A stretch of DNA of 63,704 bases, filler included, from Craspedostauros australis (Eukaryota), in NCBI GenBank assembly GCA_030167865.1. It is 13 parts of 13 records of this genome, joined end to end, with 100 filler letters (N's around TTAATTAATTAA, not from the genome) between each part and the next. Parts side by side here need not be neighbours in the genome. Positions count along the whole stretch, not along the records: positions 9,774 to 30,823 come from JALAGF010004679.1; 12 more parts are not named here. One strand, 5' to 3'. This document shows positions 6,405-60,567 of the stretch, one piece after another. The notes beneath the pieces were generated by a model, which saw nothing but the letters and a program-made list of their open reading frames with translations, ran no database searches and was not told the origin of the DNA. The position numbers and the translations under genes are program-made. Numbering within the stretch: the stretch's first letter is position 1; every line of letters starts with the position of its first letter.

Positions 6405-9400
6405 TCGCGCCAAAATAATTTCAAGGTGCGACAAGGAACACACTGAGTGAAAAGTAGTCCGTTCTTTAGATGAACTTCAACTCTCCCTTTCAGTGTTGAG
6501 TCGCAGTGAGATCATGACATCGGTGAAAACTTCATCCGTAGTTGATGTTTGAATGCCTCTCTTACCATCCCATGATTTGGAATCGCAAGTATCGGAAGGT
6601 CTGGACGATTGATCCCTTGGTGAAGACATCGGCCAGCTGCTCGCCTGTCGGGATGTGTTGTACACAGATGAACCCAGCCTTGACCCAATACCAGAAGAAG
6701 TGCCACTTGGTAAGAAAGTGTTTGGTTCGAGCAGTGGGTTGGTGATTGGTGGCAAGTGAGATGCATGCTTTGTTGTCTTCGAAGACAGTGCACTGAAGGT
6801 TTGTGTGCAAGGGCATGTCTGTGCCAGCGTTGTCGATGACCTGGCGGATGAGCTGTTGAATCGGAATGAGAGTGCGCATTGCGAGGGAAAGGGCAGCGTA
6901 CTCAGCCTCCATTGTCGAGAGCGCGATCTCCGTTTGAAGCTTGGACTTCCAGATGAGCAGACATCCTCCTAGTTTGATGAGGTATCCGGTACGCGACTTG
7001 ACCGCTGTGCGATCCTGGCCGGGCTCTTGTCTGTAGAGTCCTGCGAAGTCGGAGTCAACGAAGCACGTGAGGTCCAGTTGTCCAGTGGGGCGTATGATGG
7101 TGCCCTTGTCCTGCGTAGCCTTCAAGTATCGCATAATTCGCTTAATCGCTTTTGCGTGTGAGCGACGAGGGTCGCTTCCGAAGCAAGCGACTTGGGAGAC
7201 AGTGAATGCGAGGTCTGGACGTGTGTTGGTAGTAAGGTAGAGTAGCATGCCCACCACGGAGCGGTAGTTCCAATTTTCATCCATGGGTGGCTCATGCTCG
7301 TTCCTGCCAAGTGCGGTTTGGGCCGCGGGTGTGTCAGCTCCGCCGCATTCCATCATGCCTGTTGCCGCGAGCACCTTTTGGATGAGCCCTGGCTGCCGCA
7401 AGTGGATGTAGTCGGCTTGTGGGTCACGGTTGACTTCGATGCCGAGGAACTCGTTGAAGCTTCCTTCCTGGGTGAGTTCGAATCCTCAGTTTCGCATGGA
7501 GCGGATGAAGTCGTCTGCGAATTTCTTGGTCTTGGATGCGATGCCGGCGTCATCGACGTAGAGGACTATCTTAATGCCTTCGCGGATAAAGAGGCACTGC
7601 TCCTGATCACAGGCCGTGAATCCTTTGGCAAGGAGAGCTCGGATGAGGTGTTCGTACCACAGACGAGGGGCGATGGTGAGTCCGTATAGATTCTTCCTGA
7701 GAACGAGGCAGGTGTTCGATCCCTTGCTTGACTTGAATCCTCGTGGTAGATGGAGAAACACCAGTTTGTGAATCTCTGCTTGGACGAAGGCGTTGGTGAA
7801 GTCGATGGATGTTGTGACCCATCCCAGGACGATGGACGTGATTAGGAAGATGCGAACGGAGGACCATGCCACGACTGGCGCATAAGTCAAAGAGTCTTCG
7901 AAGATGAGATCGCCGCGGCAGCACCATCGACCCTTGTACTTTTTGATTGTACCATCGGGGAGGCGCTTGCGGCGAAAGACCCACGTTCCTGGGTAGATCT
8001 TCTCTCCATACGGCACAGTGTCCTTGTCAACTTCCTCCCATGTACCCTTCTTGGTGAGATCTTGGATTTCTTTGTTCGCTGCTTGCATCCATGCGTCTCT
8101 ATTGTCATCGCGGATGGCCTCGTCGAAGGAGAGTGTGTCTGGGTCGGAGGTCGAAGCCTTGTACGCTGCTGTTCGCTCAGAGATGTCAAGGTCGGCGCCT
8201 GTAGCGAAGTAGCTCATGAGTTGCCAGTCAACATAAGCTGGGAAGTTGGTGGCATCTGGCTGTGGCTCGATGATGTTCACTGAGTATGCGTGTTGTTCAA
8301 TGTTGGCCCAATCCTTCTGTGGGATGCAGTTGTTAGTGTCGAGAATGTAGCTCGGGTCAACTGTTAGGGTGCTTTGGAGGATGGCTTGATAGTCAGTCTC
8401 GCGCGTGTTGGGTACGTGATGAACCGGCTCTGTGCCTCCTTCTTGCACTCCGAGGTTGAATTGCTGAACTTCGAACTTGCTGGGTTGCTGCCATGGTCCT
8501 GGGCGAATGGTGCTGGTGTGCTGTCGCAGGGACTCGAACGCCAGCCGGTAGTTGTGGCTCTGTCCGATTGCATTCCAGATGGAGAGGAACTTTGCCTTGA
8601 ACATTGTTGCTCCGAGCCCGCATTCTGGAGGAGTGTGCCCTTCGTTCATTAGCGTTTCGAGGTCGTCGGATTTGGCTGGATCACGAAGAGAGCTTGCAGC
8701 GAAGTCGAGCGCATCGAAGTGTGGAGTCATGGTTCCTGTGAGCATGTATTTGCTCATAATCCCGAGGAACTTGCGCACAGCGTAGACTGTCACTTCGTTC
8801 TGTTGTTCCTCGAAGAGGAATTCGCACTCGCGATCCTCCATGATGTGGAGCTCCATGTCCAGGAAGAAGTCTTCGTATAGATCTGTTACGTTGAATGGGG
8901 CGTCTTCCGTCATGTCCGTTGGTTCCGGTTGCCACCAATCAACCATGTTCGCTTGAAACTCCTCAGGCTCTATTCTTGGTAGATCGTTGACTGAAGCTTG
9001 TGGATTGAGAGTTTGGTAGCGTTGGCGCAGTTGGCGCAGTAAGTATAGTGAGTTGACTTTGAAATCGTGGAGGTAGATAGAGAGAGGATCACTGCCGTTA
9101 CGTTGTAGAAATTCAATTGTGTTGAGGCAATCGATGACAGCTCGTGAGAATACGTGAATTGGATACGAATCTGGATGTATGTCAGATGTGGCGTCGTCTG
9201 ATTCAATTTCTTCTTCAGCAGCTGTCGCAACACAAAGGTGGTACTCATCACAATCGTCGTCTTCAAGCCACGCTGCCTTGCCTCCAAGACGTCCATAGGT
9301 GAATCGACGTGGTTCTTTGCGAATCCTGGTGCTTGGTTCTCGTTTGGGCGTGATCGTGGATGTTGGTGGAATTGGTGATGAGGTCGTGGTCTCTGGTACA

Positions 9401-9673
9401 TTTGATGTTGGCATAGAGGACACGGGTTGAAGTGGTGATTGAGCTGACTGATCTTTCTTCAGCGGATCAGGGAGCTGGTCGGAAGGTTCCCATTGCGGTT
9501 CTTGTGAAGCGGGGCCCTCTTGGAGTTCCTCGCCTTCACTTGCTGCAGGGGGATAGCTGAAGTCTCCCTCTGTTGAAGACAGTGGTTGATTCACTCCCTC
9601 TGAAGCTGACATTGGAGGGGCGAGGTCATCATTGATGAAGCCTGCGTCTGTTTGCATCATTGGTTTCCGCTTT
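6405..9673 (-). mobile_element. Ty1/copia (CoDi-like) LTR retrotransposon, 3' part of pol (IN-RT spacer, RT, RNase H) with one in-frame stop at 7486-7488
   Basis: RT motifs WVFRRKR, YKGRWCCRGD, IDFTNAFVQA, LYGL, LYVDD and YRSVVGMLLYL..NTRPDL. RNase H motifs VDSDFAG, LSTMEAEY, FEDN, RTKH and QLADVFTK. ORFs 7486-9660 and 6562-7401 are in the same frame. A purine tract GAAAGGGAGAG (6481-6491) may be the PPT. Confidence 0.95.
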
Positions 9674-13815: not shown

Positions 13816-14447
13816 AGAGAGAGAGAGAGAGAATTCCCACCTCCACGCATGCTTTTGGAAGAGTATGTATGATGCAAATCGCCGCCATGAATAGATGCAA
13901 CGCATCTGTTGGTGCACCCAGCAAATCGGTGCACTCTTGCAGAGTACTCGTGCGTCTGGCAGCGAGGCGTTCATTGGGCAGCAAACATGAGATCCCAAAC
14001 GATTAGAGCTGTCAACAAAGTACTATTCTATTATATGATTTCATACGCAATAACGAAGTAACAATCCGATACACACACACAGAAACGAAGGCCACGCATC
14101 TCGTACCACAGGAGACAACGTATGTACTATGGTATCGTCGGGCATGCTCCTGTGGAGTGGACGAAGCAACGTGGAGCCAAGCATCTACACTTGTGAACGG
14201 CCGCTACGAGCACGGTAATATGACTCGTTTGACCTCGACACCACAATTTGCCCAACACACACAACAACACAACGGAAAATAACGGTCATGTTATTGACGT
14301 TCATGGACTGACACGCAAAAGATGTGCAAATCACGTTGGAGCCATCATCACATGACAAGTCCTCCCATGCGCACTTCCGGTCACCACGGAATCCATGACC
14401 AGCAGCAGCAGCAGTAGCACCAGCAGAGGGACCCGCTCATAGTGCGC

Positions 14448-15950
14448 ATGCACGCACGGTCAGATCGAGCGGCAGCTTTCTCCGATGGCATTGCAGACAT
14501 CGGCAGAACACCAATGAAGCAACGGCGGGTTGGGCTGGTGGTGCTCTTCGGCCTCATCCTGGTCCTCTCTTCCTTTTCCATCTTCGTCTCCGTGAAGTTG
14601 GCGATCACCGACCATGCGCACCAGGATGGGTGGCTGAACGAAATGATCTTGGATCAGTCGATGGATGGATCCACAGAACAGCCATCGAATCCAATTCTCG
14701 GTCAGCCGCCACCGATCAGAGTTCAGGTGCAACCGCAGGCACCGTCGCAATCACTGCCACAGCCACAAATCATGAACCTCTCTCGAGACTTCACGTTCTT
14801 TCCCCACTTCATGACGCAGCAGCAACGGCATCCATCATTTGCAGATCCAAAACACTCCAACTGCACCAGTACCAGCCCCGATCTTCCAGGAATTCACGCC
14901 TCCCAAGAGTTTCCCACATCCTATGCCCCGCAATCCTTTCTTCGACAAGTGCATGGTGACTTCGAGGCTGCTTGGAACGCAAGTGGCCAGTATGCGCATT
15001 CTACCATCGAAACGGCTGCATGCTACATCACGAATCCATGCCCGTTGAACCACTTCCCTCACTTCCTGCAGCACATCGTGCAGTGCTGGTCGCTATGGGA
15101 GACGTTCCCTGATTCGGAGCATGCGCTGATCCTGGATCCTGGGAGGCTGGCCGGTGTCCTCAAGGCGTCCTCGTTTGGTCGGGGCATTGTGAAAATGCTG
15201 GAATCGGAACACATCGTCATCAATGAAACCACAACAGATGGCTACGAACAGAATTACTCGTCGAGTTTGGATCAGCTGCTCATCGTCATGACGAAACAAA
15301 CAAGATGGTTCGAGATGGAAAAGAGCGAACATCTCCAAAGCTTCAGGCAGAAGATGATGGAAAGCATCCCGATACAGAAGAATGCAACAGTCCATTGCTC
15401 CGCAGCCATGCATGTCAATGATCCAGCGCAGCAGATGCAACTGCAGCATCTCAACCGAACGCGCGAGCCACTTCCGCGCATTGCGATCCTCAACCGGAAG
15501 GGACACAGGCGGCTGCTGGATTCGAATACGATTTCCAATATACTGATGGATCGATTGGCGCTGACCTACAGACCGCCGGTGTTGTACTTTGAAGCATTTT
15601 CATTCGAACAGCAGGCCGAAGCCTTCACCAACGTGGACATCATCATTTCGCCGCATGGCGCGCAGTCCACCGGCATTTTCTTCATGCCTCGATGCGGGTC
15701 CCTCATCGAGATCTTCCCACCAGGACTTGACTCGAGACCTTGGTTTGGAACGATGGCGGCTCTGTCAGGACTGAACTACTCCTACGTCTACGTTGGCAAG
15801 CGCATGAAAAAGGAGACCGAAAAGATCATGCTCAAACCAGAGCTCAGATCCAAAGCACGCAAGCAACTGGTTTGTGCCCCGGTGGAAACAATCGTCGCGA
15901 CGGTGATGGAGCAGATCGATCATTGGCGACGGTGCTGCGGACTCTCATAA
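14448..15950 (+). CDS. Glycosyltransferase family 61 (DUF563)-like type II membrane protein (alternative start 14514)
   Basis: N-terminal TM segment after RR, Gln/Pro-rich stem, and motifs NHFPHFLQ, RIAILNRK and VDIIISPHGAQSTGIFFMPRCGSLIEIFP. Confidence 0.85.
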   Translation: MHARSDRAAAFSDGIADIGRTPMKQRRVGLVVLFGLILVLSSFSIFVSVKLAITDHAHQDGWLNEMILDQSMDGSTEQPSNPILGQPPPIRVQVQPQAPSQSLPQPQIMNLSRDFTFFPHFMTQQQRHPSFADPKHSNCTSTSPDLPGIHASQEFPTSYAPQSFLRQVHGDFEAAWNASGQYAHSTIETAACYITNPCPLNHFPHFLQHIVQCWSLWETFPDSEHALILDPGRLAGVLKASSFGRGIVKMLESEHIVINETTTDGYEQNYSSSLDQLLIVMTKQTRWFEMEKSEHLQSFRQKMMESIPIQKNATVHCSAAMHVNDPAQQMQLQHLNRTREPLPRIAILNRKGHRRLLDSNTISNILMDRLALTYRPPVLYFEAFSFEQQAEAFTNVDIIISPHGAQSTGIFFMPRCGSLIEIFPPGLDSRPWFGTMAALSGLNYSYVYVGKRMKKETEKIMLKPELRSKARKQLVCAPVETIVATVMEQIDHWRRCCGLS

Positions 15951-16683
15951 TCACTGTGCCAAATGTGACAGTTGAGTTTGATTCTTCTTATTCTCTCATT
16001 CACTCTGTTGCGTCGTGCGGATGGTAATGGTGGAGTTGCCCGATGTTGGATGACGTGGATCGAATTCAGGCAGGTTGCGAGGAGCTGCGGCAAATCATGA
16101 TACATTAAATAATGGTAAATCCACTGACACAACCTGACACGATGCGACACACCTGCTGGACAGAATGTCACCATGTTTTTGTCAATTCAAACTACAAGAA
16201 TGAAAAGGCCTTCGGGCATGTTCGCATTCTCATGTCCTTTCCTCCTCTGCTTTGTAAGTGTTCGTCGCCCGAGATTTGTCCCGTACCTGTCACCACGCAG
16301 AACTCACATCCTTCACTCTGCTTGAAGTACCTCCCACGACCACAATTATCGTCACTTGCTCCAAAGCAGCCTTGAGGGGAGGTTCTGAGCGAACATCGCC
16401 GGTCGCGACATCGCCACCAACATCAGCAGGAACAGGAACCGCATCGACACAAACGTGACCACATCATCCGTGCGGTCCCTCATCTTCACCAAGGCAGCAA
16501 AAGCAAGAATCCTGTCTCCTTCACCACCCTCCCTGCCATCACATGAAGCCTCTCTCCCTCTCTTCCTCATCCTCATTGGTTCTGTTCATCCACTTTTCAC
16601 ACCATCACTATCAACCCCAATTGCATTCGTTCCATCATTGACCAGTCTTCTCAAGCACCAGCCCCGTACAAACAGCATCGAAC

Positions 16684-19600
16684 ATGGTGCGGTTGCATGC
16701 GAGTGCTTCCTCCTCCTCCGACGACGACGGCGACGATGATGACAGTGGGAACTTCACAAACATCTCCGATGCACGAATACAACCGGACCATGGTGGAACT
16801 GAAGGCGACATCGAATCCAGCACAGATCAGCTCCGAAGGCAGGATCTGAGATCCGACAAAGATCATGAACTTCAGGAGGATCACGACAGCACGACCGCCG
16901 TCTCCACCATCTCGCCTGCCTCTTACCATGATGATACGAGCGGTTTCACCACCGCCGACAGCAACTTCCGCCCGAACCTCGCATCGTTTGGACAAGCAAT
17001 GAGCGACCGCAGGCTGGTTCCGAGGCAGATGCGCCCTTTTGCGCATGCTGCTGAGAAGTTTCCAGCCCCTGTCGCAGTCATGGAGGCTGATTCGACTCAT
17101 AGCAAAGACAATGCAAAGAGCACAAAGCAAATCCCGTCCACGATGCTCACCACAAGAGGCAACTCTTTGGAGCAGCAGCACAAGAAGGAATCGATCATTG
17201 CGGACGCACTTCGCCACGACGTGGCGAGAATACAGCACGATGATGTCCGAACGGGGCGAGTGAGGTTTACGGGCATTCAGCTGCAGCAGGTGGCATCGAA
17301 GACGCGAGCCACGTTCGACATTGAAAGTACTGATGGCACCCAGCTACTTTGTCCCGAACGGGAGGATACGAAGGAGAGCGGCAAATCCAACTCCGTCCAA
17401 CTCAAGCCATCAATCGTGATGCATCCTGGTGCAATTCGTGTTATCGGGCGTGACGGAGATGCCTCGTCGGGGCCAGAGATTGACGATGGCAGGCTCATGG
17501 AGGCAGATCCGACGGGCAGAATCCGGCTCGATGCGCCTGACAGCGAGGACGACGATACCGAGTATTCCACGACACTTCGTGACACGGGAACTATTTCGAC
17601 GCTCTCGACGCACCCTGGGGGCAACGCCGACCCCAGCAACGGCAATCAAGAAATTGCGGTGATCAATGCCGATGTTGAGGCTGACCGTGGGGCGGTAACA
17701 TCAGAACGGTTGCCTGTCGTGGCCGATCTTGCGCCTGACACGGATAAGATTGTGCAGCAGGCAATTGAGGAAGACAGAGCGCAACAGGATGTTGAACATC
17801 TGGTGCTCGTCGAGTCCGAACCAATCGATGAGGCGGGAGAAACACGGCGTGCCCGCAACCTCCGATGCGGTCTTGTCGCTCTTTGTTTGATCGTTGTCGT
17901 CACTGCAATCACCCTTGGGGTGATACTGTCAAAGGGCGACGGTGGAGGCGACAAGGCAAACGGGGAACCGCTGATCGCCGACAGGACCGACGCTCCCACG
18001 ATGAGTGTGCAGCCCAGCAGCATGCCCTCTGCTACTCCCACTATCTCACCATCATTGTCGCCAAGTACCGCGCCTAGTCAACAATCAACGCTCTCCAACT
18101 ATGATGCGTTGGTGCAAAGATTGGCCGCGGCGACAAACGGGAGCCTGTCAGTGTTTCATGATATGCTGAGTCCTCAATCACGCGCAGCACATTGGCTGTT
18201 GGAGGATACATTCTTCGCCATCGCAGATGCTGCCGTTGGTGACACAACTGGCAACAACACCAGCAGTATGTCCATCACAGACACTGTCGCTGACAATGGG
18301 ACTCCTTCAGTTTTGGCCTTCGAGTGGAATGAAACATCGACGAAACTTGTTGTGGAGAGATACGCCGCCGTCGTATTCTACTACGCTCTTGGCGGAGAGA
18401 TGTGGGACGACCAGCTCAACTTTCTTTCGAACGCATCGATTTGCGATTGGACAAAAAGTGTCATTACTCGCACTTCCACTCGCTTTGGCGTCATGGAAGT
18501 GGAGCATATCTATGGTATCGCATGCACCAGCAGCACGCATCCGCAACGGATTAATTTCGGCTGTAAGTTGCCAGGCTGAATCTGCTGTCGCCATTTCCAA
18601 ACGAGGAACGTTGCCTTCTGCTTCGCCTGTGATCTGCTGCTTGCGCTTGCTCTTGTGCTTCCTCATTACAACATACCACGCCAAACTGCGCTCACTCGAA
18701 TGCTTCCGCTCCCGATAAATGTCATCTCGTTGTCCCAACTTGACTACTCCACGCATCAACAGCTCATCATGAGGACATGCTCACTGGCAGATTGCCCACA
18801 GAGATTGGACTATTTCAGGAAGCGTACAGTTTCACACGTAAGTGTCTGGTGGACGGGTCACACAGGGCTCCTGGGTTGGGCCGCAACGGGCCATGTGAAG
18901 TTTTGCAATGTCCTCATGACAACCATCTCAACCCGTTGCTCGCTGCATCTTGGTGCATCTTCACTGAACCTTTCCAGTCGAATCGCAACCGCGGATCCGA
19001 GGGACCATTCCGACAGAATTAGGAAATCTCAAAGAGCTGTACAGGCTGAATCTATGTAAGTTTCGAGGCTTTCTCCCCGGGCAAACTGGATATTGGCTTG
19101 GCAGTTGGCTCTCTTGCGCTCCTACTCCCCATCTGTCCAAGTTGTTTAATGTGGCACATTGTACATTCCATTTTGCTGGTGGATTCCATTGTTGGTACAA
19201 ATGATTCCGCTCGAATTTCAAAATGAAACTCAGTCTCACACACCGACACTCCATTTGTATCGCAGCGCTGGAACGGTTGGAAGGCACAATCCCTACGGAA
19301 GTGGCTACGTTGCCATCCCTTGAGAGTCTGATATTGTGTAAGTAGATGGCGAGTGCACTCTGCTTGTTGCAGTATCTATCGGTGAATATGCCGTCTCGAA
19401 GCTTGCAGTGCTGCTTGCTCGTTTGCAAAACTCACTTGCGACAATGAATTCGCCGTACCTTTTGCAGTCGCTTTACCCATGTTTTTTCTCACACGTTCCA
19501 ACCTTGCAAATTGAGATACTGTTACGCGCAGCCAATACAATGTTATCAGGCCAGATCTCATTCAATGAAAACGACTTCACATCGCTCAGATATCTCTACC

Positions 19601-21614
19601 TAGGTAAGCACCACACAAGAGGCACTCGTTGGCATTCCTCGATTCCTCAGAGGCAAGGCGCAACTCTCCCTCCCTCTCACACACCGATCGAGATCTTCGT
19701 CATCCCACCTTGTTTCAAACCTCATTCCATTCTTACCACATTATACAAAGATGACACAGCCTGGGATTCGATCATCCCACGAGGCATCGAATACTTGACC
19801 CAATTGAGGCATCTTTCGATGCGTAAGTAAACGTGCGACTTGCTGTCATCTCCGAGGTCTGCTGTGCGATGGCTGTCATCGACTTTCATACAAGCAATGC
19901 TCATTGTCGATTTCAACACACTGCCTTGGACGTTACTGAAGGTGGAGATGTTCTCAGCCTCCGATCTCATGACACACCCATCACTCAATGGCGTTACATC
20001 TTCATCAATGTTTGTATTGCGTTCGCGTCTCAAACCACTTGCACCACATTCACTCTTTCCTATTGTCTGTATCACTCGCTGACTCCGATCGACTCTCTTC
20101 GAATAAAGTCAACACTGCGATGCGCGGCATAATTCCAACAGAAATTGGGAAACTGACATCATTGGAGAGGCTGGTGCTGGGTGAGCATATGAATGGATAC
20201 ACTCTTGAATGCGAATCAGTTTTGACTTCCTGATCTGCTTTGCCTCAATTGTGCTCTAGTATGCGGAGTATGCTGTTTGGAATATGCAGCAACCACAAGA
20301 ACCTCACTGTTAGTGTTGCTCGGTCATCTCCTTCTCTTATTATCCGGTCACCATCATCATGAACATACAACGTCCTGGGTGGCGTACTCCTCACGTGCCG
20401 TCGCGATTTATGCATCAGGTGCATGTCGCATCCTAGGTTCAATTCCCACAGAGATTGGGGAGATGACTTCATTGAAGCATCTCGATTTTGGTGAGTGGTG
20501 ACAATGTTCTTGGAGTTGGTGTCAGGATTGGTATACCGTGTGAGCCTTTCCTCAAGCGAGGCTCATTTTGGCCTCAAGGTCGGCCAAGTTTGGGAAGTCC
20601 ACTCACGAAGTGTTTGCTGCGATGCCGCTTGTGGCTGAAAAGCATCCGAACCTAACTGGCAACCTCCTCATTCTCCCGACTTTCTGTCGATACCTCATGC
20701 TATCCTCTCACCGAATCTTCTCGATCTTGATGAGGCAGAATACAGTTACTTTCTCAGTGGGAAGCTTCCAAGCGAGCTTGGTCGGTTGGTAGCATTGACT
20801 CATTTGAACGTTGGTAAGTATTTGGCACATGCTATTTCGTATTGGAAGTGGTGATATCTCGCTGGTCTTCGACTTCGAGCAACAGCAACAGCTGTTGTTG
20901 TTGTTGTTGCTGCTGCTGCTGATGGTGGCGGTTGCTCAATTTGCGCCATGCTTCTCACTTCATGTCTCCGTCTTTTCCACCAACGCCGGGTGTGCAATAC
21001 CTTGCTCCTTTTCCACGGTTTTCATCTCAAGCCTGCACCGACATTGATGGTATGATACCAGACACTCTCACTAATCTCACGCAACTGAGAGACTTCGATA
21101 TCAGTAAGTGGCCATTGTCATTACGAGGCTGTGTATTCGAGTATATGATTGAGCCATTTTGGTATGCGTCAGTGAAAAACGTGAGGAGAGCGCCGACATG
21201 CATATGCCTACGTACGAGCGTAATCGATTGGCCGTATTCATTGATCCCAATGCTGATTCTGTGGTTGCTTGTTGCCATTACTCATACTCTGCTCCTTTGA
21301 TTCCACAAAATCCGGCGATGAACCCTTCGTCTCCTCAAGGTGGCTCTTCTCTGACTGGGGGGATACCGCAGGACTTCTGCTCACAAACCTCTGACGTGCC
21401 TGGGACCTTTGCGGATCTGGAAATCGCAAATTGTGGCGCAAAAAAGAGAGAGGAGTTCGCCGTGGTCACCTTCCCACCAAACATCAACTGCACTCAATTC
21501 GATGAAACTGATCCCACCAATGTGTTGAACTGTTGCGGGTGCGCTTCGAATGATGTGGGTGAGGTGGTACGAGATTGTAGCAACTCCCGATCATGCTATA
21601 GCAGGCTTACATAA
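16684..21614 (+). CDS. Single-pass transmembrane LRR (plant-type LxGxIPxEIG) receptor-like protein, 11 exons
   Basis: Exon 1 (16684-18562) has a disordered N-terminus, TM GLVALCLIVVVTAITLGVIL, a P/S/T stalk and the LRR N-cap SPQSRAAHWL...ERYAAVVFYYALGG..W...FLS..SICDW. LRR exons are 18763-18837, 18978-19055, 19266-19337, 19532-19603, 19751-19822, 20109-20180, 20419-20490, 20739-20813 and 21032-21103. The last exon (21340-21614) is Cys-rich. Confidence 0.88.
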
Positions 21615-21935
21615 TCCGCGTGGAAGACTTCAAAGGGGAACCGGCGAGAAGAAAGATCATGCGGGAGAGACCGGAGGGAGGAGCATGATGGGGTGAAGTC
21701 TTTCTGCGAGCTTCTTGGGGAAGGGGAACAGCAGGTCGTTGATTTGACTTGCTCGCCGGATGCGACACGCACTGAAGTACCCTGGGGAGAGGTATGGTGT
21801 TCCCAATACAGAAGCGCGCGGTTGGGTTGAGTCGGGTTCGAAATTTACACATGCCTTTGATCCGAAGATCAAACTGCAGTTGTACAAATACCAGGCGAAG
21901 AAGGTATCTAAGCTATTGTTGCATGTGCTTACGGG

Positions 21936-23483
21936 CTACAATTGCTGCGCCATCAATGCCTCTTCTTGTGCAGTGGTGGATGGGCCCTGGTCTTGTTGCA
22001 GATCCTTTTGGTCCTGCGGTTGCCCATCACGATCATAATCTGGTTGTTGTTGTTGCTGCTGCTGTGCGATGATCTGCTGCACGGCGTCCGACACCATCCC
22101 GGCTCCCCACGCTGTCGCGTTCCATGCCATGCCGATGGTTTCCACAGGATGGCAGATGCGGTCGACAGCCATCCCCGCAGCCTTTTTCCCGACCTCCGGC
22201 CATCCACCTTGGCGCTCGACCTGATGCTGCACGACGCGGATGCTCTGCTTGGCAACCAACTTCCCCGTCAGCAGGGACAGCCGCGTGGTCTGCCAGGCCT
22301 GCGCCGCGCCGCTTTCTAGGTGTTCCAGGATGGGAGCCTGCGAGTTGTGCAAGTGATTGTAGACGTTCTGCAGGATGGAGTCCGTGATCACGATGCCGCC
22401 TCCCACAACCGCTGTACCGAAGGCGACGGGCCACATGGTGATTCCCAGAGCTGCTGTGAGCAAGGGCTTCTGCATGGCATTCTCTTTGCCCCAGCGGAAG
22501 GCATTTTCTACATGCGGACCCAGCGGTGGCCACAGGATGCGGATGCGTTTGCCTTTCTTATTTTTTGTGTTCTTCGTGTTGGCATTGCTGTCGTTGGTAT
22601 TGGTATTGGTGCTGGCGTCGTTGGTATCGTTGCTGCTGTCAATGCCGTTCTGTGATCTCGCTGCATCCATCGCGGGTATGGCCCTGTCCGACTGGGAACC
22701 TTGCTCCAGTATTTCAAAGCGAGGCGACGATCGATCTGCGTTGCTGCCAAGTTGCTGGTGCTCCACAAATCCCTGCAGCTGAAGGTGCGCTGACTGCAAC
22801 GATATCAAGAAGAGCCGCGCCGAAATGACAGCAACATCGGCAATCTCGCTGGCATCGCCATGATCGACGGACCGGAAGGCTTCTTCGACATCACGCAGGA
22901 GATAGGTCGCCGCTTGGAGCAGCCGCTGCATGTCATTGGGTTGGAGCTTCAGAAGCTGTTCCTGTTGCTGCTGCCACTGTTCTTCGGAAGGTCCTGTGTG
23001 GTTGCTCCAGGAAGCAGCCTCATTATTTCCGCCCGTCGTCGGTGCATCCACACTCAAGTCGGCAGCCTGTCTCCCTGAGCTTGACGATGGCGGCACCAAG
23101 GCTGTTTGCAGATCTTGCACGCAGGCCTGCGCCAGCATCTCGCGCTCCTCGTTGGACTGCTGCTCCAGCTCGTTGGCCATGTCCCCGATGACATCTGCAA
23201 TCTCCTGGCACTTTCTCAACACGACGGATCCAAGCTGCCTCGAATCGTTGCTGTCCTCCAGCTGAGTGATGAGGTCATCAACCTCCGTCAACCACGCACC
23301 CATGGTATCGACGACCGCGACTGCCAGCTCTCCCGAGTCCTGCTGATTGAGGGGCTGGAGCTGCCGCTCGGCGACAACGCCGGTGGAGGACGCATCCAAA
23401 GGCTTCCTCATCAGCACGCGGGCGTCAGAATCTGGGATGGATCTGGTCGATGCCAGCACGTCAAAGTCTTCTTCATTGAACAT
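21936..23483 (-). CDS. Hypothetical protein, 515 aa, with a helical/coiled N-terminal half and a hydrophobic segment in the C-terminal half
   Basis: Long ORF with protein-like composition; hydrophobic stretch LLTAALGITMWPVAFGTAVVGGGIVI; poly-Q tail. Confidence 0.75.
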   Translation of the reverse strand: MFNEEDFDVLASTRSIPDSDARVLMRKPLDASSTGVVAERQLQPLNQQDSGELAVAVVDTMGAWLTEVDDLITQLEDSNDSRQLGSVVLRKCQEIADVIGDMANELEQQSNEEREMLAQACVQDLQTALVPPSSSSGRQAADLSVDAPTTGGNNEAASWSNHTGPSEEQWQQQQEQLLKLQPNDMQRLLQAATYLLRDVEEAFRSVDHGDASEIADVAVISARLFLISLQSAHLQLQGFVEHQQLGSNADRSSPRFEILEQGSQSDRAIPAMDAARSQNGIDSSNDTNDASTNTNTNDSNANTKNTKNKKGKRIRILWPPLGPHVENAFRWGKENAMQKPLLTAALGITMWPVAFGTAVVGGGIVITDSILQNVYNHLHNSQAPILEHLESGAAQAWQTTRLSLLTGKLVAKQSIRVVQHQVERQGGWPEVGKKAAGMAVDRICHPVETIGMAWNATAWGAGMVSDAVQQIIAQQQQQQQPDYDRDGQPQDQKDLQQDQGPSTTAQEEALMAQQL

Positions 23484-29770: not shown

Positions 29771-30823
29771 ATGCTTCCCTCCATGCTATACTCGCTGCTC
29801 CTTCGATCCTTCTGTGTTCATCACACCTTCGCACACGCAGCTCCTCCACACGTTCGATTATTACTTACCATCGTTGCCATGGTCAATCGTAATTGGAATA
29901 CCGTTCCCGAGCGGCAGGCATTGCAAGAAGCAATCGCTCGATTTGAGGCTGCCATCACTCAACTTGCAGACATCGACGTCCAACGTCTGGATTATGCAGG
30001 CGTCGTCATTTTGGTTCAGCACTATAGCAACATCGTCGCATTGGGCCGTCATGTGCTACAAATGCAGCAACTTTACCTCGTTCCATTGGGACCTCCTCCC
30101 ATGTTCACCAACAGGAACATTGCCATCGCGGAACTGGACAACCGCGAAAGTGTTCGTCACTTTCGTTTCCGTGCGTGTGATCTCCAACGTCTGGCTGACC
30201 GTCTCTGGCCCAAATTCCAGGCAGTGTCCGGTGAGGCAGATCCTGCATGCATTCAAGTGCGAAATCGATACACAGTATCGTACGAGATGGGATTGCTCGT
30301 CATGCTATTCCGTCTGGCACATCGCGGACGGCTGTGTGACATGGAACAAAGATTCAGCATGGACAGTGTCCGTATTTCCAGCATTGCCTCCACTTTCTAC
30401 TCCTACTTCTATGACATTGGCAAACCGTACCTGAGCGACATCGGTTTGTTTCATACTCGATTCCCCGACTATGCGGAGAACAATCACCGTCTCACCCACG
30501 GCTTGGTGGACGATGTGTTCGCTTATGTCGACGGCACGTTTTGGGAAACCTGTCGTCCCAAGGAGAATCAAGAGGACCTCTACTCAGGCTATAAACGCGG
30601 TCATGGGCTACACTATCAAGGAATTGTTGCACCAGATGGGTTGCTCATTCACTACTTTGGGCCGATTGCAGGTGCTCGCAGTGACGGGTACATGTTCCAG
30701 CAAAGCAAAATCGAACAGCGATTGGAGGCTCTCATGCCATTGGATGAGAACAATCCTCCATATCGTCTCTACGGTGATGCAGCATATCCTACTACACCAT
30801 ACATATTCGCTGCATACAAGGAC
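29771..30823 (+). mobile_element. PIF/Harbinger-type DDE transposase (DDE_Tnp_4-like), 3' truncated by the gap
   Basis: Motifs HFRF, HTH-like MLFRLAH.GR..DM..RF, YVDGT....CRP, YSGYKRGHGLHYQGIVAPDG, GARSD and LYGDAAYP. Confidence 0.9.
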
Positions 30824-30923
30824 NNNNNNNNNNNNNNNNNNNNNNNNNNNNNNNNNNNNNNNNNNNNTTAATTAATTAANNNNNNNNNNNNNNNNNNNNN
30901 NNNNNNNNNNNNNNNNNNNNNNN

Positions 30924-33900
30924 GTAGAGCAGCATGCCGACGACAGAGCGGTAGTTCCATTTCTCGTTCATGGCTGGTTCATCCTTGCACTGTCCGAGTG
31001 CGAGTTGCGTGGTAGGTACCGGACATGGGTTGCAGTTCGACATCTTCGTTGTCTCAAGGACCTTTTTGATCAATCCTGGTTGTCGAAGATGGACAGTATC
31101 CGCCTTCGGGTCACGGCAGAGCTCAATCCCCAGGAATTCGGTGAAGCTGCCTTCCTGGGTAAGCTCGAACCCGAGTTCACGCATTGATGCAATGAAGTCA
31201 TCAGCATCCTTCTTAGTCTTGGAGGCGATTCCTGCATCGTCAACGTAGAGAACAATCATGATGTTGCGCTTGATGAACAAGCATTGCTCTTGATCGCAAG
31301 CTGTGAAGCCGACTGTGATTAGAGCTCGGATGAGGTGCTCGTACCACAGGCGCGGAGCGATCGTCAATCCGTAGAGACTTTTGCGAAGTCGGAGACAGGT
31401 GTTGGGTCCCTTGCTTGACTTGAAGCCGCGAGGAAGGTGAAGATGCACAGGCTTATGGATTGAGGCCTGCACGAAGGCATTTGTGAAGTCGATGGATGTT
31501 GTTGTCCAACCCATCACGATGGATGTGCTCAGGAAGATGCGGACGGATGACCAGGCCACGACTGGCGCATAGGTGGATGCATCCTCATTCATGAGGTCTC
31601 CGCGGCAGCACCAGCGACCCTTGTACTTCTTGATGGTACCATCTGGCAAGCGCTTGCGACGGAAGACCCAGGTCCCTGGGAAGATCCGATCATTGATGAC
31701 GTCGGCCTTTTGAATCTCTTCCCATGTTCCCTTCTCGGTAAGTGCCTTGATTTCCTTTTCGGCTGCTTGCATCCACTCATCCTTGTTGTCGTCGCGAATC
31801 GCTTCGTCAAAGGAAAGGGTGTCAGGGTCATTGCTGGATGCTTTGTACGTGGATGAGCGTTCGGCGATGTTCAAATCGCCACCTGTTGTGAAGTAGCTCA
31901 TCATGTGTCCATCAACATATGTTGGGAAGTTCGTTGAGTCTCGTTGTGGCTCGATGATGGAGACAGCGTAAGCATGTTGTTCGATGTTCGCCCATGTGTG
32001 CTCTGGGATACATGTTGCTGTGTCGAGGATGGATGATGGGTCGACTTCAAGTGTTGATCCGCTTTGATCGGACGCTCGCGTTGCTGGGGCCACCTTAAGA
32101 GGTGCCGTGTTGGTATCGATCATTCCTTGGATAAATTTCTCAACTTCGAATTCACTTGGCTGTGGCCATGGCCCTGGACGAATCGTCGTGACTTGGCGAC
32201 GGAGTAGTTCGAATGCGAGGCGATAGTGATGGTTCTCAGAGATGGCGTTCCACACGGAGCGAGTTCTTTTGAAGAATGTGTTTCCACTGATTTTGGATTC
32301 GGGAGGAAGAAAACCCTTCATCATCAAGTATTCCGGATCCTGATACGACCATGGCTCTGGTTTGGCCGATGACATGTAGTCAAAGGCATCGAAGCTGGGG
32401 TTCATGATGCCGGTTCGAATGAAAGTGCTCAGTCTGTTGACGAATTGGCCGACGGCGTAGTCGGTTGCTTGTCTCCTGAGGTCATCACAACGAATCTCGC
32501 AGTGAAGATCGACTTCGAAATGTCTCTCCATGTCCGAGTAGAAGTCCTCGTAGACGTCCTGGCATGGCGTTGGTCCTTCTTCGACCATGTCGTCTGGATC
32601 CGGCTGCCACCAATCGGCCATGTTGATGCTTGCTTCTTCTCTTTTAGCCGGTTTTGGGGTGAACGTTGGTAGGACGATGTTGGTTGGTTGTGGATTCAAC
32701 GTATTGAATCGACCTCGAAGTCTGCGCAACAAGTAGTGAGCGTCCACCTTGAATTGGTGTAGGTCGATGGAGAGGGAGTCGCTGCCTTTGCGTTGGAGAG
32801 GTTCGATTGTATGTAGGCAATCGACGACAGCTTGTGAGAATGTGATGATTGATGCAGAATCAGGGTGTAGTTCCCTGGTTGTTGCTTCCTGTTCATTTTC
32901 TTCCATGGTAGCCACCGCGGGACAGAAGTAGTAGTCATCGGTATCTTCGTCGTCTAACCATGCGGCTTTGCCTCCCATGCGTGCATACGTGAATCGCTTT
33001 GGTTGTTTGCGATTTCTCGTGCTTCGAGATCTTACTGGCGTTGGTTCAAGCTTGGGCATGATAGGTGCCGTGGAACCGGTTTCAGTTGGTGTTGGATCTG
33101 AAGGTGGTAATGGAGTTGCCGGTTCCGAGATTGGTGACTCTCGGAGAGGTGAGTCAAATTGCGGTTGAAGTGTTCGCTGGTCCGGTGACTCTATAGTAGG
33201 GTCAGGTACCGGGGACTCATCGGGAGCTCCCTCTGTCGAAGACATTTGCTTGTTGGCTCCCTCTGAAGCTGGCATCGGAGGGGCGAGAGGTTCACTCATG
33301 AGATCCGGGATCTGTTGTGTCGTCGGTTGCGACTCTTTCGCCAATACCTGTGGCGCCCTTTCACGGATAGTTCGTTGGTTTCGCGCCTCGGTCATCGGTG
33401 GTGGAGTATTATCGTCGTTGTGTTGTAACCGGTTGTGGTCTCGCGTGTCTGATGCGAAGATGTCGTCCTGCTCCATTGATTCCACATCGTCGTCATCGAA
33501 TGGATATTGNNNNNNNNNNNNNNNNNNNNNNNNAGTCCATTCTTCCGATTGATAGCTTGGAAGTTGCTTCAAGTCGGTAGCAATTGTTGCGAACCAGTCG
33601 TCGAACACAACATGGAACTGTGGTGTGATTGAACCTGTCCGTGGTGATAGAACTAGGGGTACGGTTGAAGCATGCTTAGTGGAGAGACCCATGTTCACGT
33701 ATCTCTCTCCTCTTGGTTCCCATCGAGGTATCTTGCGCCCGTCGGCCAGTGCTTTGTTAAGGACATAGACTGGGCTGCCCCATACGTGCAGGTTATGAAG
33801 TTGCTTGAGGGGNNNNNNNNNNNNNNNNNNNNNNNNNNNNNNNNNNNNNNNNNNNNNNNNNNNNNNNNNNNNNNNNNNNNNNNNNNNNGCATGCACTACG

Positions 33901-34970
33901 GCCATTGGCCACAGTTGAGCGTCGAACATTGTTGGCCAATGAATGCTTTGATGCATCATCATGGTTCGGGCCATTGATACAATTGTTCGAATGCTTCGTT
34001 CGGCGATTCCATTGTGATGATGAGCGCCGACGCCTGCGAATCGATGGACTTGATGGAATATTTCAAGGTGCTTGGAGTATTCGGGTGAGGTGAAGGTAGT
34101 TGCGTTGTCTGATAAGTAAGATCGCACGGGGACTCCCACATCTCGACACATTAGTTCGAACCGTTCTTTGGCCTCGAGGGTAGCGTGTGTTGTTAGTGCT
34201 GCTACTGGTTCCACATGAATGTATCCGGAGGCGTGATCGACGAAGATGGCTCCGCCTTTGTACATTTCGTTTGGATCACCTTTGCCTCGTCCTGAGAAGA
34301 GGCGTCCTGGTGTTCGACCGACGAAGTGGTCCACTGATACTTGTTGTCCTGGGAACAAATGATCGGTGCGCAAAACTCCTTGTTTGTCACGGACGACATG
34401 TTGAGTTATTCCTGGGGAAGGNCGACGGTGCAGCTTTCCGAATTGGCATGCGGCGCAGAGCGGAAGGCTTGTGACCCTTGCCGCAGCTGTGTGCATCTTT
34501 CTAGACGATTCTGACCCAGTGAGCGCACCCGAACGCAGCAGGAACTTCACTCGACTGAAGGATAAGTGTCCGAGACGATAGTGCCACCGAAGAAGTTCCT
34601 TTTGCGGTTGGGTGAGNNNNNNNNNNNNNNNNNNNNNNNNNNNNNNNNNNNNNNNNNNNNNNNNNNNNNNNNNNNNNNNNNNNNNNNNNNNNNNNNNNNN
34701 NNNNNNNNNNAGCCTTGTGGACTTCTTGTAGTTCGCTACGATTGCATTGCGATCGTCGTTTCCCAGGATTCCGCTGAGTTTGCAGGAGGACTTGTCGAAC
34801 ACTATTGTTTCGCCCTGATACTCTTCTAGGAGACTGGAAGTGCTGATTAGCTTGACCTTTGATTCGGGAACATGGAAAGCAGGCAATCGCAATTTGCGAG
34901 GGCTTCCAGTTACATCAAGGACATGCCATTCGACGGTCCCCAACGCATTCACTTGGATTTTCTTGAGGAA
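30924..34970 (-). mobile_element. Ty1/copia (CoDi-like) pol: integrase, long spacer domain and RT; related to the 6405-9673 element
   Basis: Integrase HHCC (WHYRLGH...CAAC) and core motifs VSVD, SDN, HHHNGIAER and SITPQFHVVFDD; RT motifs LYGL and LYVDD. IN precedes RT, the copia order. Confidence 0.95.
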
Positions 34971-42412: not shown

Positions 42413-42512
42413 NNNNNNNNNNNNNNNNNNNNNNNNNNNNNNNNNNNNNNNNNNNNTTAATTAATTAANNNNNNNNNNNNNNNNNNNNNNNNNNNNNNNN
42501 NNNNNNNNNNNN

Positions 42513-60467: not shown

Positions 60468-60567
60468 NNNNNNNNNNNNNNNNNNNNNNNNNNNNNNNNN
60501 NNNNNNNNNNNTTAATTAATTAANNNNNNNNNNNNNNNNNNNNNNNNNNNNNNNNNNNNNNNNNNNN

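What the first reader, a model, noticed from the sequence alone, without database searches (positions are those of the whole stretch)
18563..21339. One LRR per symmetric phase-1 exon: a shuffling- or skipping-competent receptor architecture
Seen: nine consecutive internal exons of 75, 78, 72, 72, 72, 72, 72, 75 and 72 nt each encode one LRR (e.g. LEGTIPTEVATLPSLESLIL, MRGIIPTEIGKLTSLERLVL). All are phase 1-1, so any exon can be skipped, duplicated or swapped in frame. Most other genes here have 0-1 introns, and several inferred acceptors are the weaker AAG type (19750, 20108, 21031, 21339). Established: repeat-per-exon LRR genes with exon shuffling are known in brown-algal ROCO proteins proposed to act in immunity. 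Inference: a diatom surface-receptor diversification system. The type II topology places the LRRs outside and there is no kinase domain.
Basis: partly seen in the sequence, partly recalled or inferred. Interest (0 to 1): 0.7.

Follow-up and report, generated by a model that had tools for sequence, protein, structure and literature searches.

The report
Diatom receptor gene: one LRR per exon
A diatom-type cell-surface leucine-rich-repeat protein gene really is split so that each repeat has its own small exon, but the transcripts seen use every exon, so it looks like an old relic of repeat duplication and not an active diversity generator.

Summary
Nine internal exons of 75, 78, 72, 72, 72, 72, 72, 75 and 72 nt each encode one 24-26-residue LRR, and all are phase 1-1. 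RNA-like contigs of one public run join all 10 predicted GT..AG introns at exactly the inferred coordinates.

The spliced product passes the Pfam LRR thresholds and folds as a plant-type LRR solenoid. Each exon ends one residue after a concave-face beta-strand. The protein has one membrane span upstream of the repeats, no signal peptide and no kinase domain.

The "diversification system" reading is not supported:
- No exon-skipping joint was listed, and 0 of 7 transcript ORFs skip an exon. The only variants are intron retentions, and each gives a premature stop.
- Exons 3-10 are only 30-62% identical in DNA, the introns are unrelated, and there are no pseudo-LRR exons.
- Of 3 relatives with DNA, 1 shares the phase-1 intron after the N-terminal cap, and none has one LRR per exon.

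The cap-adjacent phase-1 intron does look widespread in the family. Verdict: a new member of a known kind, of modest interest.

The parts
16684..18562 (+). Exon 1 (the start codon is the first ATG of the ORF and is unverified). It encodes an acidic, Ser-rich N-terminal tail of about 396 aa, the membrane span, a Ser/Pro-rich linker, the cap domain and the first beta-strand. It ends in phase 1.
   Evidence: ORF analysis. The donor joint at 18562 is confirmed. RNA-like cover begins only at 18466. Pfam finds no family.
17872..17928 (+). Single predicted transmembrane helix (residues 397-415). The upstream flank is Arg-rich, which fits an N-in/C-out (type II) orientation.
   Evidence: Kyte-Doolittle maximum of 3.04 over 19 residues. 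It is the only stretch above 1.6.
18091..18562 (+). N-terminal LRR cap domain. Its conserved core (RY-x-hydrophobic...G..W...NFLS...C.W) lies at about 18328-18465.
   Evidence: phmmer gives 408 representative proteins at E<=1e-3, and the best stretches fall on query residues about 80-125. Invariant R, Y, G, W, C and W in alignments A1 and A2.
18563..18762 (+). Intron 1 (200 nt, GT..CAG, phase 1). The same place and phase are seen in relative L002, and probably in many family members.
   Evidence: Joint. L002 donor and AAG acceptor. ORF read-through tally.
18763..18837 (+). LRR exon 2 (75 nt)
18978..19055 (+). LRR exon 3 (78 nt)
19266..19337 (+). LRR exon 4 (72 nt)
19532..19603 (+). LRR exon 5 (72 nt, irregular unit without the IP motif)
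19751..19822 (+). LRR exon 6 (72 nt, AAG acceptor)
20109..20180 (+). LRR exon 7 (72 nt, AAG acceptor)
20419..20490 (+). LRR exon 8 (72 nt)
20739..20813 (+). LRR exon 9 (75 nt)
21032..21103 (+). LRR exon 10 (72 nt, AAG acceptor)
21340..21614 (+). Last exon (AAG acceptor). It encodes a tenth, degenerate LRR unit and a Cys-rich C-terminal tail. The stop codon TAA is at 21612-21614.
   Evidence: 100% match to transcript ORFs P0170-P0172. The tail is modelled at low confidence.
19338..19531 (+). Intron 4, read as coding at the 5' end of four transcript ORFs (retained, or a transcript fragment that starts inside it)
   Evidence: P0171, P0229, P0230 and P0231
19823..20108 (+). Intron 6, read as coding at the 5' end of two transcript ORFs
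   Evidence: P0170 and P0173
20181..20418 (+). Intron 7, retained in one transcript ORF and covered by an unspliced 294-nt contig
   Evidence: P0230. Record 2 of X1, 20154-20447.
20814..21031 (+). Intron 9, retained in one transcript ORF. It contains a CAG/CTG-type microsatellite at about 20865-20936.
   Evidence: P0231..
21104..21339 (+). Intron 10, retained in two transcript ORFs and covered by an unspliced 294-nt contig
   Evidence: P0173 and P0229. Record 4 of X1, 21076-21369.

Best explanation
This is one real, expressed, 11-exon gene of a diatom-type eukaryote. It encodes a 937-residue single-pass membrane protein.

Domain order: a long acidic cytoplasmic N-terminal tail, one transmembrane helix, a Ser/Pro-rich stalk, a family-specific LRR cap, ten plant-type LRR turns and a Cys-rich C-terminal tail. 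The LRR part most likely lies outside the cell (type II orientation). The protein has no kinase. It would bind an extracellular ligand or partner on the concave LRR face and signal through a co-receptor or through its own tail. These functional statements are inferred.

Each of nine LRR turns sits on its own 72-78-nt phase-1 exon that ends one residue after the concave beta-strand. The likeliest origin is old tandem duplication of an 'LRR exon plus phase-1 intron' unit. The seed would be the phase-1 intron that this family carries directly after the cap. The units have since diverged.

Today the exons appear to be spliced constitutively. The only transcript variation seen is intron retention, which truncates the reading frame. 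The symmetric exons make in-frame gain or loss of repeats possible over evolutionary time, but nothing shows that the cell uses them to generate receptor diversity.
For: Shown:
- 10 of 10 introns are confirmed as GT..AG joints, and no other joint is listed.
- Seven transcript-derived ORFs (P0170-P0173, P0229-P0231) match the window's exons at 96-100%, in the order 5-11, 7-11, 8-11 and so on. None of the 7 lacks an internal exon. Six of 7 read into introns 4, 6, 7, 9 or 10.
- Every retained intron gives an in-frame stop after 2-75 codons.
- The spliced product passes the Pfam thresholds for LRR_14 (59.4 bits against 40), LRR_8, LRR_4 and LRR_1.
- The AlphaFold model has pLDDT above 90 over the LRR part, with strands every 24 residues that end one residue before each exon end.
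- The best PDB matches are plant LRR receptor ectodomains: BRI1, ERL2, GSO1, MIK2 and FLS2, at E about 1e-9.
- One hydrophobic span, no kinase.

Age of the array:
- Exons 3-10 are 30-62% identical in DNA.
- The introns have no mutual similarity apart from a microsatellite.
- Tandem Repeats Finder sees no exon-intron period.
- Each unit's best match within the gene is 26-55% identical, no better than its best match to units of distant relatives at 45-71%.

Family context:
- The cap has 408 representative relatives. Several of them have a short tail, a membrane span and then the cap.
- In relative L002 the donor after the cap strand is at the same place and phase.
- In 48 of 83 relatives whose ORF ends within 110 residues after the cap, the ORF runs h-x-h-[CRGS]-K, as expected from reading through a phase-1 GTAAG donor. 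The background is 0.06 per 70 residues.
Against: - Origin by exon-intron unit duplication is inferred from the identical position and phase. It is not shown, because no duplicated intron sequence survives.
- The transcript evidence is contigs of one run plus assembled transcript ORFs, probably from one organism and few conditions. Contigs drop rare variants, so rare exon skipping is not excluded.
- Exons 2-4 are supported only by one contig, and exon 1 upstream of 18466 is not supported at all.
- No genome is held, so paralogues, exon-number polymorphism and inter-paralogue exchange were not examined.
- LRR number differs among distant relatives, about 8-15 units. This shows that repeat gain and loss does occur in the family.
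- L003 and L004, which lack introns, may be cDNA-derived (one search gives no clue).
- Topology rests on hydropathy and sequon distribution only.
Confidence: 0.6

Rival explanations
1. One reading: the symmetric one-LRR exons are used as cassettes. Exon skipping in the transcript, and/or exon duplication and exchange among paralogues, would diversify a surface receptor repertoire, as proposed for brown-algal ROCO genes.
For: - All nine exons are phase 1-1 with lengths that are multiples of 3, so any skip or duplication stays in frame.
- Each exon is one structural turn.
- 4 of 10 acceptors are AAG.
- LRR number varies among distant relatives.
- Phase-1 donors after an LxL strand recur at other repeats in some relatives' ORFs, such as P0056, P0086 and P0119.
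- The brown-algal precedent includes alternative splicing of LRR exons (PMC11378527 passages).
Against: - 0 exon-skipping joints are listed among the joints of X1, and 0 of 7 transcript ORFs skip an exon.
- No other cluster of near-identical proteins of 146-466 aa exists in the database search.
- No pseudo-LRR or inverted LRR exon lies in any intron or anywhere else in the 63.7-kb window. Only the 10 coding units score, and the next best hit has E = 1.1.
- Exons and introns are old and diverged.
- 0 of 3 relatives with DNA have one LRR per exon.
Confidence: 0.1
2. The many introns are kept because regulated intron retention controls how much full-length receptor is made. Retained-intron mRNAs would be unproductive or would encode truncated proteins. 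The exon-per-LRR layout would then be a by-product.
For: - Retention of introns 4, 6, 7, 9 and 10 is seen in 6 of 7 transcript ORFs.
- Two unspliced contigs span introns 7 and 10 whole.
- Every retention gives a premature stop.
- Intron retention is reported as prominent and condition-dependent in Phaeodactylum (PMC5859163, abstract and passages).
Against: - The unspliced forms may simply be pre-mRNA, assembler paths through spliced and unspliced bubbles, or some genomic DNA in the library.
- No condition series was available.
- Contig depth cannot rank isoforms.
- Nothing links retention to a signal.
Confidence: 0.15
3. The introns were not inherited with duplicated exons. They were gained separately, at the same site of each repeat in an originally intron-poor LRR array. 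The cause would be a sequence preference of intron insertion at the LxL|xxN boundary.
For: - Relative L002 has the cap intron but then seven LRRs in one exon, and L003 and L004 have none. An intron-poor ancestor is therefore possible.
- The introns share no sequence.
- Phase-1 donors after LxL occur at scattered repeats in other relatives' ORFs.
Against: - Nine independent insertions at exactly the same codon position and phase are improbable.
- The exon ends show no common proto-splice motif: the last three bases are CAC, TAT, TGT, TAG, TGC, TGG, TTG, TTG and TCA.
- There is no introner-like repeat.
- Intron loss in the relatives explains the same data.
Confidence: 0.12

Closest known systems
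Ectocarpus 'type II LRR exon' loci, mainly LRR-kinases (Zambounis et al. 2012, PMC3341825, section 15 read in full)
   Same: One 24-residue LRR per exon, with the boundary offset from the ROCO type. No inactivated or inverted LRR exons, which is to say no tangible sign of shuffling. Stramenopile host.
   Different: As read from the published consensus (xLxxNxL...LxxL), the boundary there lies two residues earlier than here (LxL|xxNxL). Those genes carry a kinase and this one does not. The phase of the type II exons was not stated in what I read.
Brown-algal ROCO 'type I' LRR exons with exon shuffling and alternative splicing (PMC3341825; PMC11378527, passages)
   Same: 72-nt symmetric exons, each encoding one LRR, in a stramenopile. 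Proposed receptor role.
   Different: There: phase 2, with the exon starting at GxxP; cytosolic LRR-Roc-COR GTPases; near-identical exons; pseudo-exons in introns on both strands; recombined recent paralogues; multiple splice variants with different LRR content. Here: phase 1, with the exon starting at xxNxL; a membrane protein without Roc-COR; diverged exons; no pseudo-exons; no exon-skipped transcript.
Diatom 'plant-specific type' transmembrane LRR proteins without kinase, such as MRP2 and MRM2 of Pseudo-nitzschia multistriata and the MRM2 homologues of pennate diatoms (PMC6261938 passages; bioRxiv 10.1101/2024.04.15.589526 passages, which cite Schulze et al. 2015, not held in the library)
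   Same: Single membrane span, extracellular plant-type NxLxGxIP repeats, no kinase domain. Proposed partner-recognition or adhesion role.
   Different: MRM2 is described with a short intracellular part of about 50 aa, against about 396 aa here. The passages I read said nothing about exon structure.
Plant LRR receptor ectodomains (BRI1, ERL2, GSO1, MIK2, RGFR1, FLS2)
   Same: Best structural matches to the model of the spliced product (E about 1e-9, 25-32% identity over about 160-170 columns). 24-residue plant-type repeat.
   Different: Those are type I proteins with a signal peptide, an LRRNT_2 cap and mostly a kinase. This protein has an N-terminal anchor, a different cap family (no Pfam hit) and no kinase.
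Vertebrate glycoprotein-hormone receptor genes, one LRR per exon with all introns in phase 2 (as summarised in PMC11378527, passage). Plant SERK-type genes with 72-nt LRR exons are recalled and were not confirmed.
   Same: Repeat-per-exon LRR architecture with same-phase introns. It is interpreted as a trace of exon duplication, and the exons are spliced constitutively in the main isoform.
   Different: Different phase, boundary and lineage, so the origin is independent.

Membership tests
Leucine-rich repeat proteins (Pfam LRR clan) | Profile match above the curated threshold on the spliced product | tested here: met
   P0171, which covers exons 5-11 as spliced in a transcript: LRR_14 59.4 bits (cut-off 40), LRR_8 40.6 (27), LRR_4 38.2 (27), LRR_1 49.8 (20.6). 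Single exons alone give nothing.
Leucine-rich repeat proteins (Pfam LRR clan) | Solenoid of beta-strand/loop turns with a period of about 24 residues | tested here: met
   AlphaFold model with pLDDT above 90 over residues about 40-180 of P0171. Strands at 49-53, 75-77, 99-101, 123-125, 148-150 and 172-174.
Plant-specific (PS) LRR class | 24-residue consensus LxxLxLxxNxLxGxIPxxLGxL | tested here: met
   The GxIPxxhxxhxxhxxhxh pattern is found in 6 of the 10 units, and nowhere else in the window. The remaining units are degenerate. The top fold matches are plant LRR receptors. The class name is taken from the passage.
Diatom cap-plus-LRR membrane protein family (unnamed) | Shared N-terminal cap motif followed by LRRs, with a membrane span upstream of the cap | tested here: met
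   408 representatives at E<=1e-3. The spliced protein aligns over cap plus LRRs at 26-33% identity with P0093, P0069, P0025 and P0090. Those hits carry Pfam LRR domains. P0090 is named from the diatom Stauroneis constricta. Relatives with tail-TM-cap order are seen in A2.
Diatom cap-plus-LRR membrane protein family (unnamed) | Phase-1 intron directly after the cap's first beta-strand | tested here: met
   Window intron 1. L002 has a donor at the same codon position, in phase 1, with an AAG acceptor. There is an indirect read-through signature in 48 of 83 relatives' ORFs. L003 and L004 have no intron there, but they may be cDNA.
Brown-algal LRR exon-shuffling system (ROCO type I) | One LRR per symmetric 72-nt exon | tested here: met
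Brown-algal LRR exon-shuffling system (ROCO type I) | Same exon boundary and phase (phase 2, exon = GxxPxxL...LxLxxNxLx) | tested here: not met
   Here the phase is 1 and the exon is xxNxLxGxIP...LxxLxL. Published definitions were read.
Brown-algal LRR exon-shuffling system (ROCO type I) | Non-coding or inverted LRR exons within introns of the LRR domain | tested here: not met
   A profile of the 10 units was searched against all six frames of the window. Only the 10 coding units score, and the next best hit has E = 1.1.
Brown-algal LRR exon-shuffling system (ROCO type I) | Recently duplicated paralogues with recombined LRR domains and differing exon number | not testable with these tools
   No genome is held. 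The closest database relatives of the LRR part are 38% identical or less.
Brown-algal LRR exon-shuffling system (ROCO type I) | Roc-COR GTPase module | tested here: not met
   No Pfam family in exon 1 or the last exon.
LRR receptor-like kinase | Cytoplasmic protein kinase domain | tested here: not met
   No Pfam kinase hit in the 626-aa exon 1 or the 90-aa last exon.
Plant-type LRR receptor-like protein (RLP) | Signal peptide, extracellular LRRs, C-terminal membrane span (type I) | tested here: not met
   The only hydrophobic span (397-415) lies N-terminal to the LRRs. The N-terminus is acidic and no C-terminal span exists.

The most novel reading that the evidence does not exclude
The window gene may be the fully split, perhaps ancestral, state of a large diatom family of cap-plus-LRR surface proteins. 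In that family, phase-1 introns placed directly after the concave beta-strand would let whole LRR turns be gained, lost or exchanged in frame. That would be a diatom counterpart of brown-algal LRR exon shuffling that arose independently, because the phase and boundary differ. The conserved phase-1 intron after the cap would serve as the docking point for new LRR cassettes.
Probability: 0.12. Interest if true: 0.55.

Novelty: new member of a known kind. Interest (0 to 1): 0.3.

Why it matters
Diatom genes usually have one or two exons, so a ten-intron gene in which every intron falls at the same point of a structural repeat is a clean record of how an LRR array grew.

It shows that repeat-per-exon LRR genes exist in diatoms as well as in brown algae, plants and vertebrates, with their own boundary and phase, so the origin is independent.

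It also gives a practical warning. Prokaryote-style gene calls cut this family off right after the cap domain, so diatom LRR receptors are probably under-annotated in metagenomes.

If paralogue surveys later showed cassette exchange, this would bear on whether unicellular algae diversify surface receptors. The present evidence does not point that way.

My three literature searches for diatom LRR exon structure or diatom LRR proteins listed no paper describing this architecture in diatoms. The key survey, Schulze et al. 2015, is not in the library and may cover it.

Tried and rejected
- Whole genome: none is held, so there was no paralogue survey.
- The search for homologous proteins with the cap region of exon 1 (near lengths): 0 hits among 1379 candidates. 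The exhaustive phmmer search later found the family.
- Pfam on single exons, exon 1 and the last exon: nothing except a chance COX5B hit at E = 0.2.
- Sequencing runs: one holder, X1, whose RNA nature is the tool's guess. No RNA holder is listed as such.
- X1 gives no cover upstream of 18466 and none in bin 20824-21024. I draw no conclusion from these holes.
- Alignment A1 (40 sequences) was too diverse for the locus search. The smaller A2 gave only 4 confirmed loci from 32 pattern matches, and two of them are the same gene.
- The genome-contig scan matched 8 patterns and confirmed 0.
- Whether L003 and L004 are DNA or cDNA could not be decided from their ends.
- Positional orthology of LRR units with relatives: abandoned at about 30% identity. 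Only unit counts and best-match identities were taken, and the latter are inflated by partial alignments.
- AAG acceptors as a cause of retention: among introns 4-10, 3 of 4 AAG introns and 2 of 3 CAG introns were seen retained, so there is no difference.
- Intron-hosted RNAs: Rfam gave only two sub-threshold miRNA-model hits on the microsatellite.
- Tandem Repeats Finder found no exon-intron period.
- The SERK paper (PMC6307271) had no statement on one LRR per exon, so that comparison stays recalled.
- Earlier findings of this scan: nothing relevant.
- Two paper-reading runs failed on a search term that was too short.
- Supplementary tables of PMC3341825 and PMC11378527 were not opened. They may list more exon types.

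Full report
**What is there**

The + strand between 16684 and 21614 carries one gene of 11 exons.
- Exon 1 is an uninterrupted frame from the first ATG at 16684 (upstream stop at 16639) to 18562.
- Nine short exons follow: 18763-18837, 18978-19055, 19266-19337, 19532-19603, 19751-19822, 20109-20180, 20419-20490, 20739-20813 and 21032-21103.
- Their lengths are 75, 78, 72, 72, 72, 72, 72, 75 and 72 nt.
- The last exon is 21340-21614, with the stop TAA at 21612-21614.
- Every intron interrupts a codon after its first base. All nine internal exons are therefore phase 1-1, and their lengths are multiples of three.
- Each encodes one 24-26-residue unit of the form xxNxLxGxIPxE(I/L)GxLxxLxxLxL. A tenth, degenerate unit opens the last exon.
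- Four of ten acceptors are AAG (19750, 20108, 21031, 21339), as stated.

**Is it spliced as inferred?**

One public run (X1; Logan contigs; the tool guesses RNA) holds 31% of the sampled words of 17900-21700.
- Laid on 16000-22000, its contigs give ten joints, all GT..AG. Allowing for the stated 1-2-base ambiguity, they lie exactly at the ten predicted introns. No other joint is listed.
- Two 294-nt contigs run unspliced through introns 7 and 10.
- Independently, the protein database holds seven transcript-derived ORFs from consecutively numbered transcripts of a marine eukaryote transcriptome collection: P0170-P0173 and P0229-P0231.
- Mapped back to the window, they are 96-100% identical to it and contain exons 5-11, 7-11, 8-11, 7-10, 5-10, 5-7 and 5-9 in genomic order.
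- None of the seven lacks an internal exon.
- Six of the seven start or end with residues read from introns 4, 6, 7, 9 or 10, which is intron retention or unspliced precursor.
- Every retained intron brings an in-frame stop after 2-75 codons.
- Nothing supports exon 1 upstream of 18466, so the start codon is unverified.

**What the product is**

- Single exons are too short for Pfam. The spliced transcript ORF P0171 passes the curated thresholds of LRR_14, LRR_8, LRR_4 and LRR_1.
- An AlphaFold model of P0171, built with a 42-sequence alignment, has pLDDT above 90 across the repeats. Beta-strands lie at residues 49-53, 75-77, 99-101, 123-125, 148-150 and 172-174.
- The exon ends fall at residues 54, 78, 102, 126, 151 and 175. 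Each exon is therefore one structural turn that ends one residue after the concave-face strand.
- The best solved matches are plant LRR receptor ectodomains (BRI1, ERL2, GSO1, MIK2, RGFR1, FLS2), at E about 1e-9 and 25-32% identity.
- The 937-residue protein has a single hydrophobic span (397-415) with an Arg-rich upstream flank and an acidic N-terminus without a signal-like segment. Nine of 11 N-glycosylation sequons and 12 of 15 cysteines lie downstream of the span.
- Exon 1 and the last exon have no Pfam domain, so there is no kinase.
- A type II, kinase-less LRR receptor-like protein is therefore the best reading. The orientation is inferred, not shown.

**Family and host**

- The segment between the membrane span and the first LRR is a cap domain with a conserved core.
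- An exhaustive phmmer search found 408 representative proteins at E<=1e-3, many with several copies.
- Inside the Python box, the spliced protein aligns over cap plus LRRs at 26-33% identity with the best of them. Nine that I scanned all carry Pfam LRR domains.
- One (P0090) is named from the diatom Stauroneis constricta. Others come from the same transcriptome collection or from metagenomes.
- The nearest ESM Atlas clusters to exon 1 are eukaryotic hypothetical proteins, most commonly Bacillariophyta, at score 0.90. That is a lead only.
- Copia-type retroelements and GT61 glycosyltransferase genes surround the gene.
- No relative closer than 38% identity to the LRR part was found.

**Tests of the 'shuffling or skipping' idea**

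The brown-algal precedent is real. I read section 15 of Zambounis et al. (PMC3341825) and passages of Teng et al. (PMC11378527).
- There, ROCO 'type I' LRR exons are 72 nt and in phase 2, and they begin at GxxP.
- Shuffling was called from inactivated or inverted LRR exons inside introns, from recombined recent paralogues and from multiple splice variants.

The situation here is different.
- The phase (1) and the boundary (after LxL) are different.
- A profile of the ten units, run over all six frames of the 63.7-kb window, finds only those ten units, and the next hit has E = 1.1.
- Exons 3-10 are 30-62% identical in DNA.
- The introns share nothing except a CAG/CTG microsatellite, and Tandem Repeats Finder sees no exon-intron period.
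- Each unit's best match within the gene (26-55%) is no better than its best match to units of distant relatives (45-71%; the latter figure is inflated by partial alignments).
- No skipped-exon transcript was seen.

The same paper describes a second class, 'type II LRR exons'. These have one LRR per exon with offset boundaries, occur mainly in LRR-kinases, and show no tangible sign of shuffling. That class is the closer analogue.

**Relatives with DNA**

A pattern scan of metagenome contigs gave 4 confirmed loci from 32 pattern matches. L001 and L002 show identical LRR peptides, so there are three distinct relatives.
- L002 has a GTAAGT donor after the cap's beta-strand at the same codon position and phase as intron 1 here, and an AAG acceptor 153 nt downstream. 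Seven LRRs then follow in one exon. A second intron is in phase 0 and sits at a different point of the repeat.
- L003 reads through cap and LRRs in one frame. L004 does so apart from a one-base frame change. I cannot tell whether either is genomic or cDNA-derived.
- So 0 of 3 relatives have one LRR per exon, and 1 of 3 shares intron 1.

Indirect evidence is broader.
- My cap pattern matched 113 of the 150 listed phmmer hits. In 83 of those, the ORF ends within 110 residues after the cap.
- In 48 of those 83, the ORF runs hydrophobic-x-hydrophobic-[C/R/G/S]-Lys. This is what reading through a phase-1 GTAAG donor gives.
- The background is 66 such patterns in 75,647 residues of the long hits, or 0.06 per 70 residues.
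- I dropped the 37 hits without a pattern match and the 30 whose ORF continues further.
- A few ORFs show the same signature after the first or second LRR (P0056, P0086, P0119).

The phase-1 intron after a concave strand is thus a family trait. This gene is the extreme case in which every boundary carries one.

**How it most likely came about and works**

The identical position and phase of all ten introns is best explained by old tandem duplication of an 'LRR exon plus intron' unit, seeded by the cap-adjacent intron and followed by long divergence. This is an inference.
- Independent insertion at nine equivalent sites is less likely. The exon ends share no proto-splice motif, and there is no introner-like repeat.
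- Loss of introns in the relatives would explain L002.
- The gene now appears constitutively spliced, with sizeable unspliced or retained-intron material. That fits what is reported for Phaeodactylum, where intron retention is prominent (PMC5859163, abstract and passages).
- Function is inferred from the architecture and from diatom literature. Kinase-less transmembrane plant-type LRR proteins (MRP2, MRM2 and homologues) are proposed as pheromone receptors, adhesion molecules or partner-recognition molecules (PMC6261938 and bioRxiv 10.1101/2024.04.15.589526, passages).
- I could not test homology to those proteins.

**Novelty and verdict**

Repeat-per-exon LRR genes are known in brown algae and in vertebrate hormone receptors. 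In plants they are known only from my recall, which one search did not confirm. Kinase-less membrane LRR proteins are known in diatoms.
- My three literature searches for diatom LRR exon structure or diatom LRR proteins listed no paper that describes one LRR per exon in a diatom. The main survey (Schulze et al. 2015) is not held, so this is not proof that it is unpublished.
- I rate it a new member of a known kind.
- The architecture is real and tidy. It permits in-frame repeat gain or loss, but it shows no sign of being an active diversification system.
- Interest is about 0.3.
- The open question, testable only with the genome and long-read cDNA, is whether the wider family exchanges LRR cassettes.

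Noticed in passing
window 7486-9660 (-), 30876-34952 (-), 42465-45407 (-), 60516-63467 (-): Four long ORFs carry Ty1/copia-type reverse transcriptase (RVT_2), some with gag-pre-integrase, integrase and SH3 domains. The window is rich in copia-like retroelements.
   Followed up: no
window 14442-15950 (+), 47899-49617 (-), 49924-51270 (-): Three paralogous ORFs with a glycosyltransferase family 61 domain. One lies directly upstream of the LRR gene.
   Followed up: no
window 29771-30871 (+): ORF with a DDE_Tnp_4 (Harbinger/PIF-like) transposase domain, next to a copia element.
   Followed up: no
window 54840-58124 (+): A 1094-aa ORF with PT disordered repeats and a DUF7640 domain. Possibly a secreted or wall-associated protein.
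   Followed up: no
window 21340-22000 and beyond: One 1598-nt RNA-like contig starts exactly at the last exon's first base and runs past 22000, into the 3' end of the convergent minus-strand ORF 21936-23483. The 3' ends of the two genes may overlap, or the assembler may have merged them.
   Followed up: no
window 20865-20936 and 22043-22064: A CAG/CTG-type microsatellite sits in intron 9, with its two halves in opposite orientation. A similar run lies in the neighbouring gene. It caused the only intron-intron BLAST hit and two sub-threshold miRNA-model hits.
   Followed up: partly
window 21443, 21498, 21870; introns 4 and 6: X1 contigs differ from the window at three bases: A>G, T>C and C>G. 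By my own reading of the sequence, the T>C change would turn a Phe codon into Leu. The transcript ORFs also differ from the window inside introns 4 and 6, including one extra residue. This is allelic or strain variation.
   Followed up: partly
proteins P0001-P0150: Many metagenome-derived family members are annotated as 200-300-aa proteins that stop just after the cap domain. This is apparently because prokaryote-style gene calling reads into the first intron. This eukaryotic family is systematically truncated in such catalogues.
   Followed up: partly
proteins P0001, P0093: Some cap-containing relatives combine the LRR modules with He_PIG, Calx-beta, fn3 or Big_9 domains and carry up to 11 cap copies. 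The cap-plus-LRR module is reused in very large multi-module proteins.
   Followed up: no
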